Shown here piece after piece: positions 1-43,459 of a stretch of 43,459 bases of DNA. The stretch's first letter is position 1. Every line of letters starts with the position of its first letter. The stretch is from a virus: the IMG/VR virus record IMGVR_UViG_3300047409_000665, positions 1-43,459 of that record. One strand, given 5' to 3'. The position numbers were made by a program, and so were the translations under genes. Below the pieces are notes generated by a model. It ran no database searches. It saw only the letters and a program-made list of their open reading frames with translations, and had not been told where the DNA came from.

Positions 1-127
1 TATTATTTATGTTTACTTTGTGAACATGTCCGTACACAAATAATCGCATCATTGTAATATATGAAGACCGAAATCAATTCGCCCTCAGAAGAGGCCGCTC
101 CGATTCGGCAGGATGCCGCGGTGATGG
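1..127. repeat. Terminal direct repeat, left copy; identical to 43333..43459 (circular-assembly overlap or terminal redundancy)
   Basis: Base-by-base reading: tattatttatgtttactttgtgaac...gccgcggtgatgg at 1-127 recurs exactly at 43333-43459, including the start of ORF 61..282. Confidence 0.97.
17..40. promoter_or_regulatory. Candidate operator: imperfect palindrome TTTGTGAAC-N6-GTACACAAA in the divergent switch region
   Basis: The arms at 17-25 and 32-40 match 8/9 as an inverted repeat. The site lies in the 120-nt gap between divergent RHH genes 42883..43272(-) and 61..282(+). Confidence 0.35.
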
Positions 128-7321: not shown

Positions 7322-7542
7322 AGATTATCAGGCCAAGGGTCTCACCGAGGCAGTTGAATCTAGCCCTTGGAGACTGGGTGGAATACCAGCATGACGATGG
7401 CCACAAGACGCTACATCCGGTCTCGGGGTATCCGGCGAAGCTAGGGGGGCACACATGGGTGATATGGCTTGATGGCGTTGTGGGTTGCGTCGCTCTCTCG
7501 CGTTGTAAGCCCACCAAGTTTTATCCGGCAGCCGCACAATGA
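7318..7542 (+). CDS. Small hypothetical protein translationally coupled to terL
   Basis: ATGA overlaps at both ends (7318 and 7539); 74 aa, beta-rich. Confidence 0.5.
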   Translation: MKIIRPRVSPRQLNLALGDWVEYQHDDGHKTLHPVSGYPAKLGGHTWVIWLDGVVGCVALSRCKPTKFYPAAAQ

Positions 7543-9536
7543 CCACCCCCACCCTCAATGACCCCTGGCTGCTGGACCAGGCGCGCAAGTTCCTCGAGGA
7601 AGAGGGGCCGCCGCCGCATCCGCTGCTTCGCCTGCCCACGGCTGAGGAAATCGCGCAGGCGATGCGCCTGCCGAAGCAGTATGGTATTTACAAAGTCTCC
7701 GAGGCCTTTGCCGAACATCAGAAGCGTGTGCAGGACGCCGATGAACGCACCGGCGAACCCCTCACGCGCGGATTCATCCTCGAGCCGTGGTACACCCTGA
7801 TGGAGCAATTCCAGCACGCGCGGACGGTTTATTGCGGCGGTGGAAAGCGCGCCTCAAAGACCGAGTGCGCCGCGTGGCTGTTTGTTAAATCGTGCCTGGC
7901 CTATCCGGGCGGCCGGCGATGGATCCTGGGTGAGACCGAGAAATCCTCACAGAACATCCAGCAGCCCGCGATCTGGAAGTATCTGCCCCGGTCCTGGCGC
8001 ACGCAGCTCAACGCGAAGGAATCTCGCGAGTTCAAGCTCAAGTATGCCGAGGGCCGCGGCTTCTCCGACAACCTCCTCGTGATGCCGACCGATCCGCCTA
8101 CCATCGTCCAGTTTCTCTCGTTCATCCAGGACCCCCAGCATTACCAGGGGTGGCGGCTTGGAGCCGAGAACTTCAAGCCCATAACGTTAAAGGTCGCTGA
8201 AGGCCGGGAAATTCCGTTGCCAAACATGGGTTGGTGGGCTGATGAGAACATGCCACTGCTCTGGCTCGAGACGGCCGAGACGCGCAGCCAGGACGTGCAA
8301 TCGTGCGGTCTTTGGACCTTTTCACCCCTCGAGGGGATCACCGCGACGATCAAGGAGATGCTCGGAAGCCCGAAGGTTCTGGCGCAGAAACCGGCCGAAC
8401 TGGTGCCTCAGGACCGGATCATGGTCCCAGGCTGCAAGCCGGGTTGCATGCCCACGGTGATGGAATGCAGCCGCCCTCGCACGCGAGCGATCTTCTTCTT
8501 TCGCGAGGATAATCCCTTTGCCCGTTACGCCGATCACGCGGCGGAGATCCGCTCAAAGCCCGAGACCGTGATCATGCGCGATTCCTACGGCTGGGCTGTG
8601 GATGTGCGGCACCGCGCATTCCCGAAGTTTGGCGCGGTCCATATCATCAAGCCCGAGCATTTACCATCAGACGGAACCAATTACATGTTCACCGATCCCG
8701 CCGGGGCCAGGCGTTGGGCAACGATCTGGGTGCGGGTGGACCCGCGCGCCTACCTTTTCATCTATCGGGATTGGCCCGACAAAGCCCGATATGGCGATTG
8801 GGCGGTTCCGAGCGATCGCGATGAGGAGCCTGATGGACGGGCCGGGCCGGCGCAGCAAAGCGACGGCATGGGCGTGACCGGTTACAAGGAACTATTCCTC
8901 AATGAGGAGACCGTGACCTTGGAAATCTCAGGCCATGGAGAATGGGTCGAGTCGGACCCGTACCGAAGGAAGCTCGGCGACGATGTGATGTTGAACGCCC
9001 GCAAATCCAGGGCTGCTCCTGGTCGATGGAATCCGTCCGATGCCCGCGAGGTCCGCTCCCAACTGGCCAGTCCATTACGCGAGGAAATTCTCAGCCGTCG
9101 AGTGGATCCGCGCGCGGCCGGCAGCGAACACGCCCAGGAGCAGGGCGCCAAGACCGTTGTCGATCTCTTTGCGGAACGAGTGGTCGGCCCTGCCGGGGAG
9201 ATCACCGAGCCGATGATGCTCGAGCCAGCCTACAGCGGACGTTCTGTTGGCGTCGGTGAGAATGCACAGATCGGCACCGGCCTGGCCGAAGTCAACGAAC
9301 TCCTCGATTGGGACCCGCTCGACCCAAACGGGCCAGTGCCTGGCATCAACGAACCACGCTTGTACGTCTCGACCGAATGCGAGCAGGTGATCTGGATGAT
9401 GCAGACCTACACGGCCAGGGGCGGAGCGAAAGGCGGCTGCAAGGATTTTGCCGATCTGGTGCGGTACATGGCTTTGGCGGACCTGCAATACATCGGCGCC
9501 GAGGGAATGCTGGCGACAGGAGGAGGGACGTATTGA
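7539..9536 (+). CDS. terL: Terminase large subunit
   Basis: Walker A YCGGGKRASKTECAAW, Walker B GWWADE, C-terminal RNaseH-like nuclease segment FTDPAGARRWATIWVRVD; 665 aa. Confidence 0.85.
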   Translation: MTTPTLNDPWLLDQARKFLEEEGPPPHPLLRLPTAEEIAQAMRLPKQYGIYKVSEAFAEHQKRVQDADERTGEPLTRGFILEPWYTLMEQFQHARTVYCGGGKRASKTECAAWLFVKSCLAYPGGRRWILGETEKSSQNIQQPAIWKYLPRSWRTQLNAKESREFKLKYAEGRGFSDNLLVMPTDPPTIVQFLSFIQDPQHYQGWRLGAENFKPITLKVAEGREIPLPNMGWWADENMPLLWLETAETRSQDVQSCGLWTFSPLEGITATIKEMLGSPKVLAQKPAELVPQDRIMVPGCKPGCMPTVMECSRPRTRAIFFFREDNPFARYADHAAEIRSKPETVIMRDSYGWAVDVRHRAFPKFGAVHIIKPEHLPSDGTNYMFTDPAGARRWATIWVRVDPRAYLFIYRDWPDKARYGDWAVPSDRDEEPDGRAGPAQQSDGMGVTGYKELFLNEETVTLEISGHGEWVESDPYRRKLGDDVMLNARKSRAAPGRWNPSDAREVRSQLASPLREEILSRRVDPRAAGSEHAQEQGAKTVVDLFAERVVGPAGEITEPMMLEPAYSGRSVGVGENAQIGTGLAEVNELLDWDPLDPNGPVPGINEPRLYVSTECEQVIWMMQTYTARGGAKGGCKDFADLVRYMALADLQYIGAEGMLATGGGTY

Positions 9537-10128
9537 GCACACCCACCTTGATCTCTTCTCAGGCATCGGAGGATTCGCCTTGGCTGCTCAATGGGCAGGA
9601 TGGACAACCATCGGATTCAGCGAGATCGATCCCTACGCCAGCAAAGTACTCAAGCAATACTGGCCCAGCGTCCCAAACTACGGAGACATCCGAAACCTCA
9701 AAGGCATCAAGGCCGACTTGGTTACAGGGGGATTTCCTTGCCAGCCATACAGTGTTGCCGGGAAGCGAAGAGGCGCGAGCGATGACCGCGCGCTCTGGCC
9801 GGAAATGCTCCGAGTTATTACCGAAACAGCACCCACTTGGGTCCTTGCTGAAAACGTGCCTGGAATCATCAACATGGAACTCGAACGTGTGCTTTCTGAC
9901 CTGGAAGCCATCGGTTACGCCTGTTGGCCGCTTGTTATTCCAGCTTGCGCCGTGGACGCAAGACACCGACGAAGCCGAGTCTGGATTGTGGCCCACCCCG
10001 TCAGCCAACGACTGGAAGGGCTGGAGCCATGGCCACAACAGGGCGGATACCGACGACCGACTGGACTACAAAATCGAACGACAGGCGGCGGAACTCCTGA
10101 GCCCCCCCCCGACTCAATGGCCGGCTGA
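9448..10128 (+). CDS. DNA (cytosine-5)-methyltransferase, N-terminal catalytic part (frame 1); real coding probably ends near 9993
   Basis: Motif I LDLFSGIGGF, motif IV GGFPCQPYS, motif VI ENVPG, motif VIII-like ARHRRSRVWIVA. The start is uncertain: ATG 9448 overlaps terL by 89 nt, whereas ATT 9532 follows AGGAGG (9521-9526). Confidence 0.8.
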   Translation: MPIWCGTWLWRTCNTSAPRECWRQEEGRIEHTHLDLFSGIGGFALAAQWAGWTTIGFSEIDPYASKVLKQYWPSVPNYGDIRNLKGIKADLVTGGFPCQPYSVAGKRRGASDDRALWPEMLRVITETAPTWVLAENVPGIINMELERVLSDLEAIGYACWPLVIPACAVDARHRRSRVWIVAHPVSQRLEGLEPWPQQGGYRRPTGLQNRTTGGGTPEPPPDSMAG

Positions 10129-10252
10129 ACCCGCCCTGGGTCGAGTGGCTCATGGGATACCCAATAGGTCACACCGCCTTAAAGGACTCGGAAATGCCAT
10201 CGTCCCGCAAGTCGCGGCGCAAATCCTCCACTGGATGAAGAATCACTCGTGA
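9986..10252 (+). pseudogene. C-terminal part of the same C5-methyltransferase in a different frame (frame 2), ending in motif X
   Basis: LWPTPSANDWKG...WPAEPALGRVAHGIPNRSHRLKGLGNAIVPQVAAQILHWM. Third-position GC over 10001-10102 is 26/34 in this frame versus 15/34 in frame 1. Confidence 0.7.
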
Positions 10253-10458
10253 CCTCTCGCCTCCAACTGTTCGTAGACGGCTTCCGCCTTTGGCTCTCCC
10301 CCAAGGAAGCCCGGCAATTACTTTCGTGCGGCCGGGAAACACTGCGCACCTATCGCGATCGCGGGAAGATCCGAACCCGGCAGACCCCCAGAGGACACTA
10401 CCGCTACTGGCGCGATGACATTTTAAACATCCTAAAACCGATAAATCATGAAAACTAA
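10249..10458 (+). CDS. Excisionase/MerR-family HTH protein
   Basis: WLSPKEARQLLSCGRETLRTYRDRGKIRTRQTPRGHYRYWRDDI; GTG start in a GTGA overlap. Confidence 0.6.
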   Translation: MTSRLQLFVDGFRLWLSPKEARQLLSCGRETLRTYRDRGKIRTRQTPRGHYRYWRDDILNILKPINHEN

Positions 10459-10707: not shown

Positions 10708-10950
10708 TCAAGCCTTCTGCGTGATGCGTTCCGCAAGCCACATCTTGATAATCGATTGCCGGGGAACACCCACCCGGCGCGCCTCCTGGTCCAGTCCGTC
10801 AATCATCCATGCGGGTAGATCGACATTCACCCGCCGTTGCTCGAGACCAGGTCGGGTGGCTTTCGACCAGTCCAAATACTCGCTCATATCCTCACCGGAA
10901 TCAGCCAGCCGATCGAATTCCTCAGCGGTAATAGTTTTCTTTTTCTTCAT
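10708..10950 (-). CDS. brnA: BrnA-type (CopG-like) antitoxin
   Basis: MKKKKTITAEEFDRLADSGEDMSEYLDWSKA...RVNVDLPAWMIDGLDQEARRVGVPRQSIIKMWL; directly downstream of brnT. Start taken at the internal ATG 10950. Confidence 0.75.
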   Translation of the reverse strand: MKKKKTITAEEFDRLADSGEDMSEYLDWSKATRPGLEQRRVNVDLPAWMIDGLDQEARRVGVPRQSIIKMWLAERITQKA

Positions 10951-11182
10951 CGCGTGCCCTTCTGGCGGTGATGATTCGAATTCGGTCTTCCCGTTCGGTG
11001 TAAACGCACATCCAGAGTTTGCCATCAACCTCACCGACCAGCCCGGAACGGGTTTCATTCACCTGCCGGGCTGGAACCACTATTCGATTCGCATCCTGCC
11101 ACAATTTCTGGATTCGAACGAAGTCGATCCCGTGCTTGGCCAGATTTGCGGCCGACTTTGCGGGATCAAACTCGAATTCCAT
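10922..11182 (-). CDS. brnT: BrnT (DUF497) ribonuclease toxin
   Basis: MEFEFDPAKSAANLAKHGIDF...VYTEREDRIRIITARRA is the typical BrnT signature. Confidence 0.8.
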   Translation of the reverse strand: MEFEFDPAKSAANLAKHGIDFVRIQKLWQDANRIVVPARQVNETRSGLVGEVDGKLWMCVYTEREDRIRIITARRARDEEKENYYR

Positions 11183-11218: not shown

Positions 11219-13417
11219 ATGAAACCCGACATCAAAGACCTCGTCACAGAGTTCCAGGAGCTGATCGACGGCCCTGGCGATGACCTCGCCCGGCGCCAGC
11301 TCAACTACAACACCCGCTATTGCGTCTGGGCCGGCCAATCGCCCGATCTCAAGAAGTGGAAGAAGAATATGCCCGCGGGCCAGGAGGTCGTCCCATGGGA
11401 AGGCGCGACCGATTCCCGCGTGTACCTCGTCGACCAATACATCAATGAGGATGTGGACACTCTTTGCCTGGCGTTCAACCAGGCTCAACCCGAGGCCAAG
11501 CCAGTCGCACTCGATGACATAGGAAAGGCCAAGAGGACCTCGCAATTTCTGCAGTGGCTCTGGAGTTCGCAGATTGAAGACATCGATGCCGAGGCAGAGA
11601 TCCTCGCCAACGGCATGCTCGAGGATGGCATCGCCTACGCCGGGATCGTGTGGGAACGCAAGGTCGAGCTGACCGACCAGGAATTCAGCCTCGAGCAAAT
11701 CACCAATGCGGCCATGGCCGCCCAGTTCCAGCGACAGAAAGGCGACCCGGATCCGAATCTTGACCTGATCATGGCATTGCCGCAGACCCTGATGGATCCG
11801 GAGCGCGACGATGATTCGATTGAGCTGGTAAAAGCCATCTATCGCCAGCAAGCCGAGCTGACAGGTGATTTCTATGAGTCAGAAATTCCAGACCCGACCA
11901 CTGCAGATGTCCGGGCAGGGATCAAGGAATTGCGCGAGACGGGCAAGACCACGATCGCAGTGCCCAGGCTCGTATCCAACAAGCCGGCGGTTACTGCCCT
12001 GCGGGATCGGCTCGATCTGTTTCTGCCTGACGACACCCAACGGCTGCAGGACGCGCGCCGTATTTATCGCCGGGAATTCGTCACGGCGGAGGCCCTCGAC
12101 AATCGGCAGATTTCAATGGGTTATGACGAGAAATGGGTGAAGGAGGTCAAGGAACGGGCCAAGGGCCGATCCACAGCAGCCTGGTATGCCGGCGTCGAAC
12201 AGCGCAATGCAAAGGGCCTTGTCTCTTCGCGCCGTATTCCTGGCGATCCATATCTGGATATCAATGAGCTCTACGAGATCGTCCATTGTTACGAGCGCAA
12301 ATCCAATGAGCGTGGCGTTCCGGGCATTTACTGCACGGTCTTTTGTCCCTCCTGCACGCACGTCAACAGCCAGGAGATTTATGCCTACAGCCAATTGCTG
12401 GGCTACGATCACGGCCAATATCCGTTTGTGGAATTCCCGCGGGAACGGTTGAGCCGGCGTTGCACTGATGCCCGTGGCTACGGCGAATTGGGTGCGAGTT
12501 TCCAGAAGCTGCTCAAGGTCGAGCAGGATTCGCGGTGCGACAGCACCAACATGACCACGATCCCGCCCTTGATGCATCCGATGGGCCGGCCCCCGACCCG
12601 CTGGGGTCCAGGGGTCCGGGTGCCCGAGGCGCGCCGGGACGATTACCACTACGCGGCTGTGCCCCCGCCGCCGAGCACCTCGTTTCAGGTCTCGCAGGAT
12701 ATCCAGCATCGAGCCGACAGGAACTTTGGACGGCCGGTCGCGGACGAGGATCCGGCCTATGCCAGGAACCGGCGAATGCGAATGACTGAGCGTTGGCTGG
12801 GCTGCTGGACAAAGGTTCTCGCGCAGGCCTTCGCCTTGTGCCAGCAATTCCAGCCCGATGTCTTCTGGTTTCGTGTCACTGGCCAGCTCGATGCCGAGCC
12901 GATCCGGGCCAGCCGGGATGATATCCAGGGCAAATTCGATCTCAGCCTGAGTTTCAACATTGCCGGCCTTGAGCCCGACCTCCTCGAGAAACAATTCAAG
13001 ATGCTGATTGAATTCGTCCAGGCTGTGGACATCGGCGGCACCGTGGACCGCGACCAACTGTTGCGCCTTGGCCTCGAGGCGATCAACCCCGCATTCGCGG
13101 AACGCCTCCTGAAGAATCCGCAAGGCGCAGCCCAAGCCGAGATCGACCAGGAACGATTGGTCGTGACCGGCCTGCTCAACGGCATCGACAGCGACGTGAA
13201 GCCCGGGCAAGCCCATCAACTGCGATTGCAGACCTTCGACAACATCATGCAGACCAACAGCCGCGCGATGCAGATCGCGGCGGAGAACCCGCAAGTGGCG
13301 GAGCTACTGAAGAAGCGCCGTCAACAGCTCCAATTCGCTGTGGAGCAGAAGACGACCAACGCCCAGGCGGGGAGGGTCGGCACGTTGCCAAGTCAACAGA
13401 TGGGGGCGGGGGCGTGA
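11219..13417 (+). CDS. Portal protein (candidate)
   Basis: 732-aa ORF, the first large late gene after terL and followed by scaffold and capsid genes. The call rests on position and size. Confidence 0.6.
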   Translation: MKPDIKDLVTEFQELIDGPGDDLARRQLNYNTRYCVWAGQSPDLKKWKKNMPAGQEVVPWEGATDSRVYLVDQYINEDVDTLCLAFNQAQPEAKPVALDDIGKAKRTSQFLQWLWSSQIEDIDAEAEILANGMLEDGIAYAGIVWERKVELTDQEFSLEQITNAAMAAQFQRQKGDPDPNLDLIMALPQTLMDPERDDDSIELVKAIYRQQAELTGDFYESEIPDPTTADVRAGIKELRETGKTTIAVPRLVSNKPAVTALRDRLDLFLPDDTQRLQDARRIYRREFVTAEALDNRQISMGYDEKWVKEVKERAKGRSTAAWYAGVEQRNAKGLVSSRRIPGDPYLDINELYEIVHCYERKSNERGVPGIYCTVFCPSCTHVNSQEIYAYSQLLGYDHGQYPFVEFPRERLSRRCTDARGYGELGASFQKLLKVEQDSRCDSTNMTTIPPLMHPMGRPPTRWGPGVRVPEARRDDYHYAAVPPPPSTSFQVSQDIQHRADRNFGRPVADEDPAYARNRRMRMTERWLGCWTKVLAQAFALCQQFQPDVFWFRVTGQLDAEPIRASRDDIQGKFDLSLSFNIAGLEPDLLEKQFKMLIEFVQAVDIGGTVDRDQLLRLGLEAINPAFAERLLKNPQGAAQAEIDQERLVVTGLLNGIDSDVKPGQAHQLRLQTFDNIMQTNSRAMQIAAENPQVAELLKKRRQQLQFAVEQKTTNAQAGRVGTLPSQQMGAGA

Positions 13418-43332: not shown

Positions 43333-43459
43333 TATTATTTATGTTTACTTTGTGAACATGTCCGTACACAAATAATCGCATCATTGTAATATATGAAGAC
43401 CGAAATCAATTCGCCCTCAGAAGAGGCCGCTCCGATTCGGCAGGATGCCGCGGTGATGG
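43333..43459. repeat. Terminal direct repeat, right copy (duplicate of 1..127)
   Basis: Exact 127-nt identity with 1..127. Confidence 0.97.

What the first reader, a model, noticed from the sequence alone, without database searches (positions are those of the whole stretch)
9448..10252. C5 DNA methyltransferase with conserved motifs spread over three reading frames around C-runs
Frame 1 carries motifs I, IV and VI and ARHRRSRVWIVA, ending at 9993. Frame 2 carries LWPTPSANDWKG starting at 9986, and later WPAEPALGRVAHGIPNRSHRLKGLGNAIVPQVA (motif X). The two frames overlap on TTGTGGCC next to the run GCCCACCCC. Removing one C would give ...RVWIVATPSANDWKG... as a single ORF.

My third-position GC counts support frame 2 after 10000 (26/34, against 15/34 for frame 1).

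Downstream of a C9 homopolymer (10102-10110), the third frame encodes RLNGRLNPPWVEWLMGYPIGHTALKDSEMPSSRKS. From memory this is a motif usually found just before motif X in phage C5-MTases. That frame has higher GC3 (20/27) than the frame continuous with motif X (13/28) over 10109-10192.

The pattern suggests one uncompensated frameshift near 9990, plus a compensated pair bounded by the C9 tract and about 10176. Alternatively the C9 tract could toggle between two C-termini. Possible explanations are a decaying anti-restriction gene, a phase-variable gene, or recoding.
Basis: partly seen in the sequence, partly recalled or inferred. Interest (0 to 1): 0.65.

Follow-up and report, generated by a model that had tools for sequence, protein, structure and literature searches.

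The report
Nested two-subunit methyltransferase gene, frameshifted
This phage cytosine-methyltransferase gene normally encodes two proteins in two overlapping reading frames, as the known enzyme M.EcoHK31I does, and in this genome one extra C in a run of nine breaks both, which explains why its motifs lie in three frames.

Summary
Motifs I-VIII are in frame mod1, a WPTP module and motif X in mod2, and motif IX in mod0.

Two of the three frame changes are not mutations. In about 130 relatives found only through the N-terminal domain, the frame of I-VIII (f0) runs on to motif X. The +1 frame (f1) encodes one to five '[WL]PTP.A.D' modules and motif IX. Both frames stay open and the third does not. 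The wobble phase switches from f1 (motif IX) to f0 (motif X).

This is the layout of M.EcoHK31I, a heterodimeric C5-methyltransferase. Its beta chain (motif IX) lies in another frame inside the alpha gene (I-VIII and X).

The window departs from this norm by one base. All 40 intact beta homologues and 114 of 120 alpha homologues change frame at about 10100-10125, where the C9 run lies (10102-10110). C8 restores alpha (239 aa) and beta (234 aa). As assembled, neither is intact.

An identical C9 occurs in a second assembly, which may not be independent. I cannot tell whether C9 is a fixed lesion, a reversible switch or leaky through slippage. Long repeats in relatives make switching plausible.

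The gene is a new member of a known but little-recognised kind.

The parts
9520..9527 (+). Shine-Dalgarno-like GAGGAGGG serving the two adjacent start candidates
   Evidence: Read directly. It lies 4-5 nt upstream of ATT 9532 and TTG 9533. Function is inferred.
9532..10128 (+). alpha (f0, frame mod1), N-terminal part as assembled. It carries motifs I, IV, VI and VIII, then an unconstrained linker, and is cut off by a stop at 10126-10128 after the C9 run. It has no canonical start: ATT at 9532, and the only in-frame TTG is at 9448, inside the upstream ORF.
   Evidence: Pfam PF00145 1e-40 and TIGR00675 9e-34. 114 of 120 homologues align here in mod1. Start analysis.
10112..10252 (+). alpha C-terminal part, displaced into frame mod2: TQWPAEPALGRVAHGIPNRSH RLKGLGNAIVPQVA (pre-X segment and motif X), stop 10250-10252.
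   Evidence: Alpha homologues align here in mod2 at 60-86% identity. The f0 wobble phase over LGNAIVPQVA is seen in 51 relatives.
9533..10110 (+). beta (f1, frame mod2), N-terminal part. TTG start at 9533, then the +1-frame 'shadow' of the alpha catalytic domain, then one TRD-like module LWPTPSANDWKG (9986-10021). As assembled it reads through into the alpha C-terminus, giving the 239-aa ORF 9533-10252 that gene callers report.
   Evidence: 40 of 40 intact beta homologues align here in mod2. phrog_1008 at 9e-29. The ORF is called as a 239-aa gene in the Logan contig and is P0121.
10110..10238 (+). beta C-terminal part, displaced into frame mod0: RLNGR LNPPWVEWLMGYPIGHT (motif IX, 10125-10175) plus an unconstrained tail, stop 10236-10238. 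No start codon of its own precedes motif IX.
   Evidence: 40 of 40 beta homologues align here in mod0 at up to 82% identity. The f1 wobble phase over G.LNP.WVEWLMGYP.GWT is seen in 51 relatives. ORF list.
10102..10110 (+). C9 homopolymer, the only departure from the family's frame plan. Deleting one C restores alpha (239 aa) and beta (234 aa) together.
   Evidence: The frame junctions of alpha and beta homologues both fall at about 10100-10125. An identical C9 is in a second assembly.
10118..10182 (+). Dual-coding zone where both products are under selection. Beta motif IX is read in one frame. In the other frame lie the alpha residues W..EP...R....R..R(L/I)(K/R) just upstream of motif X.
   Evidence: Third positions of f1 codons are fixed where they form alpha W, E and R residues. 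Elsewhere they vary freely and produce the alpha H/N/D, I/V/L and S/T/P/A 'variation'.

Best explanation
The locus is a nested two-ORF C5 DNA methyltransferase gene of the M.EcoHK31I type.

- **Alpha (f0)** is the catalytic large domain: motifs I-VIII, then a disordered spacer of arbitrary sequence, then the motif X helix.
- **Beta** is read in the +1 frame inside the same DNA. It consists of a weakly constrained leader overlapping motifs IV-VIII, one or more TRD-like '[WL]PTP.A.D..G' modules, and motif IX. Together the modules and motif IX supply the small DNA-recognition domain.

By analogy with M.EcoHK31I, the two chains would assemble non-covalently into the active enzyme. This step is inferred.

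In this phage one extra C in a C run (C9 instead of C8, 10102-10110) shifts everything downstream.

- Alpha loses motif X.
- Beta loses motif IX and instead reads into alpha's C-terminus.
- Motif IX is left in a third frame with no start.

As assembled, the enzyme should therefore be off. A small amount could be rescued by slippage on the C run (polymerase slippage, or +1 ribosomal slippage on CCC-C). A one-base contraction of the run would switch it fully on.
For: **Family plan**
- In about 130 loci fetched with the N-terminal domain alone, PTP modules and motif IX are in f1 and motif X is in f0. IX mostly starts 44 nt before X.

**Both frames kept open**
- f1 has no stop from upstream of motif IV to past IX in 126 of 127 loci. 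Synonymous shuffles give P = 0.145 per locus.
- f0 has no stop across the linker in 124 of 124 loci, against P = 0.06 per locus.
- f2 has the expected number of stops.

**Selection by frame**
- The wobble phase is f1 over IX and f0 over X.
- Alpha W/E/R residues are fixed at f1 third positions.
- In PTP modules the f1 third positions are free and the alpha residues are unconstrained.
- pN/pS for f0 is 0.30 in the N-terminal domain and 0.37 at motif X.

**Independent beta starts**
- One clade has ATGAATGAA, with the f0 and f1 ATGs 4 nt apart.
- Other clades have TAG-ATG preceded by AGGA, built from the alpha D-V-R-N codons.
- An SD-like motif precedes the first f1 ATG in 30% of loci, against a 10% background.

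**Precedent**
[quoted passage not shown] Alpha carries I-VIII and X, beta carries IX, and both are required. The N-terminal ~42 residues of beta are dispensable (PMC2836561 and PMC3404938).

**Structure**
- An alpha homologue folds as the large domain (pLDDT above 90), a disordered linker and a motif X helix. It matches M.HhaI and M.HaeIII at 1e-12 over about 162 columns, the large domain only.

**Databases hold both products**
- phrog_363 (alpha) and phrog_1008 (beta) both exist.
- Phage Likha annotates both nested ORFs.
- 26,117 beta-like cluster representatives score E <= 1e-10.

**Single lesion in the window**
- Alpha homologues go mod1 to mod2 and beta homologues go mod2 to mod0, both at about 10100-10125.
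- C8 restores both ORFs.
- C9 is identical in a second assembly, and the contig is a short-read-style circular assembly.
Against: - No protein or methylation data exist for this family. Assembly of alpha with beta is inferred from one characterised enzyme, and I could not test its sequence relationship to this family.
- Pfam does not detect motif IX or motif X in any C-terminal piece. Their identity rests on direct reading of the motifs.
- Beta alone gives a low-confidence model with no PDB match.
- The literature places the TRD of M.EcoHK31I in alpha. Here the only conserved candidate modules are in beta.
- Alpha has no canonical start codon in the window (ATT), which could mean further decay.
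- The pN/pS contrast in the linker is weak (0.61 for f1 against 0.77 for f0), because the modules are hard to align.
- Loci are phylogenetically related, so the per-locus probabilities cannot simply be multiplied.
Confidence: 0.75

Rival explanations
1. The C9 run is a reversible phase-variation switch rather than a fixed lesion. Slipped-strand mispairing toggles C8 and C9, so the phage population switches the two-subunit enzyme on and off. A single one-base slip disables or restores both subunits at once.
For: - C8 restores both ORFs exactly.
- Relatives carry much longer repeats inside the same gene: G10 (L009, L017, L057), G11 (L022), G8 (L012, L085) and (AG)17 (L013). L013 is itself in the shifted state.
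- The same '+1 state' recurs independently in L117 (an isolate genome) and L023.
- The '-1 state' occurs as proteins P0018, P0067 and P0111.
Against: - No length polymorphism has been seen. The two assemblies available both show C9 and may come from the same sample.
- A C or G run of at least 9 is expected about 0.7 times per genome of this composition, so the run itself is not remarkable.
- Homopolymers of at least 7 are not enriched in the family's genes compared with their flanks: 0.25 against 0.54 per kb.
- L117 and L023 are shifted without any long repeat.
Confidence: 0.3
2. The extra C is a sequencing or assembly error. The real phage has C8 and an ordinary intact alpha/beta gene.
For: - Homopolymers are the commonest site of length errors.
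- One base fewer gives a perfect family-standard gene.
- All other long ORFs of the window are intact, including ones containing G8, C8 and C7 runs.
Against: - An independently built Logan contig (32 kb, SRR35509274) is identical over 8 kb, including C9.
- The 127-nt terminal overlap points to a short-read de Bruijn assembly, where 9-mer length errors are uncommon. This last step is inference.
- About 3% of relatives are in the same shifted state.
Confidence: 0.15
3. A single canonical methyltransferase chain is made by programmed ribosomal frameshifting: +1 after motif VIII into the PTP/IX frame, then -1 after motif IX back into the motif X frame. In the window a further +1 would be needed at the C run.
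For: - The motif order I-VIII, TRD-like modules, IX, X is exactly canonical if the frames are joined.
- The IX-to-X spacing is fixed at 44 nt in most loci.
- 30 of 51 sequences have TTA-AAG over CTT-AAA at the switch.
- CCC-C is a known +1-prone site (my own knowledge).
Against: - f0 is kept open across the whole linker. Alpha residues W, E and R inside the IX region are conserved at f1 synonymous positions. Neither would be needed if f0 were not translated there.
- f1 is kept open, with its own ATG and often an SD, from upstream of motif IV. That is far 5' of any possible shift site.
- The first PTP module lies at variable distances from motif VIII.
- The lysine pair at the IX/X switch is not conserved, and TTA-to-CTT re-pairing is poor.
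- The joined chain would leave only 7-8 residues between the GYP of motif IX and the LGN of motif X.
- The characterised precedent works as two chains.
Confidence: 0.07
4. One reading: a decaying single-ORF gene that has accumulated three separate indels, near 9990, at the C9 run and near 10176.
For: Three frames are needed to read all the motifs. The GC3 pattern follows the frame changes.
Against: - The offsets at about 9990 and 10176 are present in about 130 relatives across many phyla and are under purifying selection in both frames.
- No relative has the PTP module or motif IX in the frame of I-VIII with motif X also in that frame.
Confidence: 0.03

Closest known systems
M.EcoHK31I (E. coli HK31; Lee, Kam and Shaw 1995, as described in PMC2836561 and PMC3404938)
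   Same: [quoted passage not shown] - The beta N-terminus is largely dispensable, as expected for the weakly constrained 'shadow' leader seen here.
- Sizes are similar: alpha 230-330 aa here. My recollection of M.EcoHK31I is alpha 309 aa and beta 176 aa.
   Different: - The literature assigns the TRD to alpha. Here alpha's variable region is an unconstrained spacer, and the conserved TRD-like PTP modules (one to five in tandem) are in beta.
- M.EcoHK31I belongs to a restriction-modification system. These genes are orphan phage or prophage genes.
- The window copy is frameshifted.
- Sequence homology to M.EcoHK31I could not be tested.
M.AquI (two-subunit C5 methyltransferase; PMC3404938)
   Same: It is a natural heterodimeric C5 methyltransferase split within the variable region.
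   Different: M.AquI is split end to end: alpha carries I-VIII and beta carries IX-X. It is not nested, and motif X is on the small chain. Relative L088 (PTP modules, IX and X all in +1 relative to I-VIII) looks more like this type.
Phase-variable DNA methyltransferase genes with simple-sequence repeats (e.g. type III mod genes; PMC1557822)
   Same: A homopolymer lies inside the coding region, and changing its length by one unit switches the reading frame. Relatives carry G10, G11 and (AG)17 tracts.
   Different: Here one slip affects two overlapping ORFs at once and yields three distinct coding states. No length variation has been observed, and the C9 run is not longer than chance allows.
Multispecific Bacillus phage C5 methyltransferases (SPR, phi3T, rho11s; from my own knowledge)
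   Same: Phage-encoded enzymes with several short target-recognising modules in tandem between motifs VIII and IX.
   Different: Those are single chains in one frame. That each PTP module confers its own specificity is speculation here.

Membership tests
C5 cytosine DNA methyltransferase (Pfam PF00145 / TIGR00675) | Motifs I (F.G.G), IV (PCQ), VI (ENV) and VIII (R.R) in one domain | tested here: met
   PF00145 at 1e-40 over residues 5-169 and TIGR00675 at 9e-34. Motifs read at 9556-9993. An alpha homologue model matches M.HhaI and M.HaeIII at 1e-12.
C5 cytosine DNA methyltransferase (Pfam PF00145 / TIGR00675) | Motif X (GNAV.P) present and joined to the catalytic domain | tested here: not met
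   GLGNAIVPQVA is present at 10184-10216 but in frame mod2. The mod1 ORF stops at 10128. Deleting one C would join them. Pfam itself does not score this short motif.
C5 cytosine DNA methyltransferase (Pfam PF00145 / TIGR00675) | Motif IX (..L.P.E...L.GFP..) and a target-recognition region between VIII and X in the same chain | tested here: not met
   LNPPWVEWLMGYP is in a different frame from I-VIII and X, in the window and in every relative. The HMM test of its identity as motif IX was inconclusive (no Pfam hit; phrog_31772 at 3e-5 for a relative). The identification rests on direct reading.
M.EcoHK31I-type nested heterodimeric C5 methyltransferase | Alpha ORF carrying motifs I-VIII and X, with no motif IX | tested here: not met
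   Met in about 124 relatives. Not met in the window as assembled, where alpha is truncated before X. Met after removing one C.
M.EcoHK31I-type nested heterodimeric C5 methyltransferase | Beta ORF lying wholly inside alpha in another frame and carrying motif IX | tested here: not met
   Met in relatives: f1 is open from upstream of motif IV to past IX and ends before the alpha stop. In the window beta is split between mod2 and mod0 at the C9 run. It is restored by C8.
M.EcoHK31I-type nested heterodimeric C5 methyltransferase | Both frames translated and under selection | tested here: met
   Family level: stop avoidance in both frames but not the third, a codon-phase switch and dual constraint, and beta start codons with SD-like motifs. 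This is indirect evidence, with no protein data.
M.EcoHK31I-type nested heterodimeric C5 methyltransferase | Both polypeptides required for methylation | not testable with these tools
   Needs expression of alpha and beta separately and together. Shown for M.EcoHK31I only (PMC2836561).
M.EcoHK31I-type nested heterodimeric C5 methyltransferase | Sequence homology to M.EcoHK31I alpha and beta | not testable with these tools
There were no E. coli hits among plasmids or E. coli genomes.
Phase-variable (contingency) gene | A simple-sequence repeat in the coding region whose unit change switches the product on or off | tested here: met
   C9 at 10102-10110. C8 restores both ORFs.
Phase-variable (contingency) gene | Observed repeat-length polymorphism within or between populations | not testable with these tools
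   No reads are available. Two assemblies both show C9. Pattern scans for other run lengths in viral and metagenome contigs found nothing.
Phase-variable (contingency) gene | Repeat longer or more frequent than composition predicts | tested here: not met
   0.73 runs of at least 9 C or G are expected per genome and one is observed. Some relatives do carry G10, G11 and (AG)17.
Programmed ribosomal frameshift gene | Conserved slippery site at a fixed position, with the zero frame closed after it | tested here: not met
   The VIII-to-PTP distance is variable. TTA-AAG at the IX/X switch occurs in only 30 of 51 sequences. Both frames stay open far beyond the putative sites.

The most novel reading that the evidence does not exclude
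A very large family of phage and prophage C5 methyltransferases is obligately two-subunit. It includes thousands of alpha homologues and 26,117 beta-like cluster representatives. Databases file alpha as an ordinary single-chain Dcm and beta as a hypothetical protein.

The DNA-recognition half (tandem PTP modules plus motif IX) would be written in the +1 frame of a spacer inside the catalytic-subunit gene. That would place the true TRD in beta, contrary to the published assignment for M.EcoHK31I.

Because the two frames are interleaved, one-base slips at internal repeats would move the gene between three coding states:
- alpha plus beta;
- alpha fused to motif IX;
- beta fused to motif X, which is the state of the window.

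Phages would use this as a switch for methylation or its specificity.
Probability: 0.3. Interest if true: 0.75.

Novelty: new member of a known kind. Interest (0 to 1): 0.58.

Why it matters
- **Annotation.** Gene callers report either the alpha or the beta frame, or a chimera as here (the 239-aa ORF 9533-10252). Alpha gets named as a complete Dcm-type enzyme although it lacks the DNA-recognition half. Recognising the nested plan would correct thousands of phage annotations. It would also prevent intact genes being called frameshifted pseudogenes, and the reverse.
- **Enzymology.** The comparative data suggest that the recognition modules sit in beta and come in one to five tandem copies. This is directly testable and bears on how these anti-restriction enzymes choose their targets.
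- **Evolution.** This is a clean, large-scale example of long-term dual coding, with a sharp hand-over of selective constraint between frames.
- **This phage.** The practical conclusion is that its methyltransferase is probably off, or only leaky.

Tried and rejected
- **Frameshift at about 9990.** Rejected, because the offset is universal in the family.
- **Near-identical contigs with other C-run lengths.** Pattern scans of viral and metagenome contigs found nothing. The only other copy is identical.
- **Sequence link to M.EcoHK31I.** No E. coli hit in plasmids (tblastn) or in E. coli genomes (blastn with a gammaproteobacterial relative). The original paper is not held and the later paper has no supplement text.
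- **Pfam on f1 products and on artificial f1+f0 C-terminal chimeras.** No hit, even for the obvious motif X.
- **Beta alone in AlphaFold2.** Mean pLDDT 65. There were no Foldseek matches below E = 3 and no PDB sequence match.
- **Mixed alpha+beta alignment for modelling the natural fusion P0018.** It aligned beta 'shadow' regions against the catalytic domain, so I did not use it.
- **pN/pS in the linker.** Only weakly discriminating, 0.61 against 0.77. The anchored entropy analysis was much clearer.
- **Literature searches for a description of this architecture in phages.** Searches found only the M.EcoHK31I and M.AquI work.
- **Calling the upstream 665-aa ORF a terminase.** Dropped, because it has no PHROG or Pfam hit.
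Full report
**What is in the window.** The region follows a 665-aa ORF (7539-9536) that has no family match.

- Frame mod1 carries motif I (FSGIGG, 9556-9573), IV (GGFPCQPYS, 9727-9753), VI (ENV, 9850-9858) and VIII (RHRRSRVWIVA, 9961-9993). It runs on to a stop at 10126-10128.
- Frame mod2 is open from 9308 to 10252. It carries LWPTPSANDWKG (9986-10021) and, later, WPAEP...RLKGLGNAIVPQVA (motif X, 10175-10216).
- Frame mod0 carries LNPPWVEWLMGYPIGHT (10125-10175).
- A C9 run lies at 10102-10110.

The N-terminal part is an unambiguous C5 methyltransferase catalytic domain (PF00145 1e-40, TIGR00675 9e-34).

**Homologues give two answers at once.** It found thousands of proteins of 230-330 aa. 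They read '...RVWIVA(H/Y)S', then a variable charged linker, then 'W.(A/P)EP..GRVA.GIPNRSHRL(K/R)GLGNAIVPQVA', all in one frame. Against the window, 114 of 120 align as mod1 then mod2, with the change at about 10100-10125.

Three database proteins (P0018, P0067, P0111) instead end in 'LNP.WVEWLMGYP.GWT...' and align to mod0. Back-translating these endings showed that 'LNP.WVEWLMGYP.GWTDL..S' and 'EP..GRVA.GIP.R..RL.GLGNAIVPQ' are two readings of the same DNA.

**The family plan.** I fetched 160 loci from viral contigs and GTDB genomes, using only the N-terminal domain as query. I then located the motifs in all frames. Let f0 be the frame of motifs I-VIII.

- In essentially every locus the f0 ORF runs on to motif X.
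- The +1 frame (f1) of the 'linker' encodes one to five '[WL]PTP.A.D..G' modules and motif IX (EW[LM]MG[YF]P).
- Motif IX usually starts exactly 44 nt before GNAIVP.
- No locus has motif IX in f0.
- f1 is open from upstream of motif IV (-23 to about -250) to just past IX. f2 closes within a few codons.

**Both frames are maintained by selection.**

- *Stop avoidance.* f1 has no stop across motifs IV-VIII in 126 of 127 non-identical loci. Synonymous shuffles of f0 give 1.7 stops on average and P(0) = 0.145 per locus. f0 has no stop across the linker in 124 of 124 loci. Synonymous shuffles of f1 give 3.8 stops and P(0) = 0.06. This set was chosen for having motif X inside the f0 ORF; about 2 further loci have an f0 stop. 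f2 matches expectation (5.5 against 5.4, and 7.9 against 7.7).
- *Anchored alignment of 51 unique IX-X segments.* The high-entropy position is the f1 third base all through 'G.LNP.WVEWLMGYP.GWT(D/E)L'. It switches to the f0 third base at 'LGNAIVPQVA'.
- *Alpha 'variation' is beta wobble.* The variable alpha residues in this stretch (H/N/D, I/V/L, S/T/P/A before H, V/M/L before D) are exactly what free f1 wobble predicts.
- *Alpha is also constrained there.* Some f1 third bases are frozen where they build alpha W, E and R residues ('W..EP...R'). So f0 is also translated and selected here, and the zone is truly dual-coding.
- *PTP modules, 229 segments.* The f1 third bases are free and the alpha residues are unconstrained.
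- *pN/pS.* f0 is the constrained frame in the N-terminal domain (0.30, against 0.93 for f1) and at motif X (0.37, against 0.99). The linker contrast is weak (f1 0.61, f0 0.77).
- *The f1 'shadow' of motifs IV-VI.* Most fourfold sites are free. A few are biased towards particular beta residues. This leader is translated but only weakly constrained.

**How f1 is reached.** Nearly every locus has an f1 ATG upstream of motif IV, at clade-specific positions (-203, -71, -59, -38, -26).

- One clade has ATGAATGAA, with the f0 and f1 ATGs 4 nt apart behind a single ribosome-binding site.
- The -38 clade has AGGA, about 7 nt of spacer, then TAG-ATG, built from the alpha D-V-R-N codons.
- An SD-like motif precedes the first f1 ATG in 30% of loci, against a 10% background.
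- In the window the pair is ATTG behind GAGGAGGG. TTG (9533) starts f1. f0 has only ATT (9532).
- Some relatives even carry a PTP module in f1 upstream of motif IV (P0143, P0148, L082). f1 must therefore be read right through the catalytic-domain DNA.

**Known precedent.** M.EcoHK31I is a natural heterodimeric C5 methyltransferase. [quoted passage not shown]' Alpha has motifs I-VIII and X, beta has motif IX, and both are needed. The first ~42 residues of beta are dispensable, and internal methionines can start it (PMC2836561; PMC3404938). M.AquI is a second, end-to-end split enzyme.

The layout found here is the M.EcoHK31I layout. I could not test whether M.EcoHK31I belongs to this sequence family.

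There is one difference from the literature. There, the TRD is assigned to alpha. In this family alpha's variable region is a disordered, unconstrained spacer, and the conserved TRD-like modules are in beta.

- An AlphaFold2 model of the alpha homologue P0031 shows the large domain (pLDDT above 90), a disordered stretch at 161-208 and a confident motif X helix.
- Foldseek matches M.HhaI and M.HaeIII at 1e-12 over about 162 columns, the large domain only.
- Beta alone models poorly (pLDDT 65) and matches nothing.

**Databases already hold both products without connecting them.**

- Alpha matches phrog_363 and beta matches phrog_1008, both labelled 'DNA methyltransferase'.
- Paenibacillus phage Likha annotates both nested ORFs as cytosine methyltransferases.
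- 856 or more beta-like proteins, all without a Pfam domain, were found by word search.
- 26,117 cluster representatives match the beta profile at E <= 1e-10. Some of these may be single-chain enzymes that share the modules.
- Six literature searches found no description of the architecture in phages.

**What is wrong in the window.** The family norm is I-VIII in f0, PTP in f1, IX in f1 and X in f0. The window has I-VIII in f0, PTP in f1, IX in f2 and X in f1, with the normal 44 nt between IX and X. That amounts to one extra base between the PTP module and motif IX.

- All 40 intact beta homologues hit the window as mod2 then mod0, with the junction at about 10100-10125.
- Alpha homologues change from mod1 to mod2 in the same zone.
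- The only repeat there is the C9 run.
- Removing one C gives alpha of 239 aa (...GGGTPEPPPTQWPAEPALGRVAHG...) and beta of 234 aa (...AELLSPPRLNGRLNPPWVEWLMGYP...).

As assembled, alpha lacks motif X. Beta reads into alpha's C-terminus, which produces the 239-aa chimera that gene callers report. Motif IX has no start of its own. The enzyme should be inactive unless slippage on the run rescues a fraction. That rescue is inference: CCC-C is +1-prone according to the literature I recall.

**Real or artefact, fixed or switching.**

- The window is a circular contig with a 127-nt terminal overlap.
- A separate 32-kb Logan contig from SRR35509274 is identical over 8 kb, including C9. It may come from the same sample.
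- Other long ORFs, including ones with G8 and C8 runs, are intact.
- A run of at least 9 C or G is expected 0.73 times in a genome of this composition, so the run is not itself evidence of a selected switch.
- On the other hand, relatives carry G10, G11, G8 and (AG)17 tracts inside the gene.
- The same '+1 state' recurs in L117 (a Marinococcus isolate genome), L023 and L013. The '-1 state' exists as P0018, P0067 and P0111.
- I therefore regard a genuine one-base insertion as most likely (about 0.8). Whether it is a dead end or a reversible switch stays open.

**Verdict.** The gene is a frameshifted new member of the M.EcoHK31I kind of nested two-subunit C5 methyltransferase. What is less expected is how large and uniformly dual-coded this family appears to be, and that its recognition modules appear to lie in beta.

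Noticed in passing
window 1-127 and 43333-43459: The first 127 bases are repeated exactly at the end of the window. The contig is therefore a circular assembly, a complete element of about 43,332 bp, probably from a k=127 de Bruijn assembler.
   Followed up: partly
window 10708-11182 (- strand): A BrnT-like ribonuclease toxin (10922-11182; phrog_4399 at 2e-18, Pfam BrnT_toxin) and a CopG-type antitoxin (10708-11058) sit between the methyltransferase and the 732-aa ORF.
   Followed up: partly
window 9532-9535: Alpha has no canonical start codon. Behind the SD-like GAGGAGGG there is ATTG, with ATT in the alpha frame and TTG in the beta frame, overlapping the TGA of the upstream ORF. In a related clade the same position reads ATGAATGAA, with two ATGs 4 nt apart.
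   Followed up: partly
window 7539-9536 and 11219-13417: The two large ORFs flanking the locus (665 aa and 732 aa) have no PHROG hit, and the first has no Pfam hit either. By position they could be a terminase and a portal, but nothing supports this.
   Followed up: no
window 10249-10458: A 69-aa excisionase or HTH-like ORF (phrog_66 at 3e-5) starts at a GTG that overlaps the methyltransferase stop (GTGA).
   Followed up: no
L009 +342, L017 +379, L057 +148, L022 -32, L012/L085 +331, L013 +318 (positions relative to motif IV): Relatives carry G10, G10, G10, G11, G8 and (AG)17 tracts inside the methyltransferase gene. L012's contig ends at its G8 tract, and L013 is in the frame-shifted state.
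   Followed up: partly
L088 (MAG, Pseudomonadota), gene region +228 to +760 from motif IV: Here the PTP modules, motif IX and motif X are all in one frame, +1 relative to motifs I-VIII, with 45 residues between IX and X. This is either an M.AquI-like end-to-end split or a frameshifted single-chain relative.
   Followed up: no
L082 / P0110 / P0143, P0148, P0153, P0155, P0157, P0159: Some relatives have an extra insert between motifs III and IV of alpha. In alpha it reads as charged filler, and in the beta frame it reads as a further WPTP module. Beta is therefore read across the whole catalytic-domain DNA.
   Followed up: no
P0122 residues 60-125 (beta 'shadow' of alpha motifs IV-VIII): AlphaFold2 gives this weakly constrained leader a fairly confident fold of two helices and a hairpin (pLDDT 65-90). 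It may be a real small domain, or an artefact of covariation inherited from the alpha frame.
   Followed up: partly
window 9541-9990: GC3 of the alpha catalytic domain is only 58%, against 68-75% in three other long genes of the window. This could reflect constraint from the overlapping beta frame or a foreign origin.
   Followed up: no
PDB 3g7u and 3lx6: Two solved structures of putative prophage cytosine methyltransferases (E. coli CP-933R, Shigella flexneri) appear among the structural matches of alpha. I did not check whether their genes have the nested plan.
   Followed up: no
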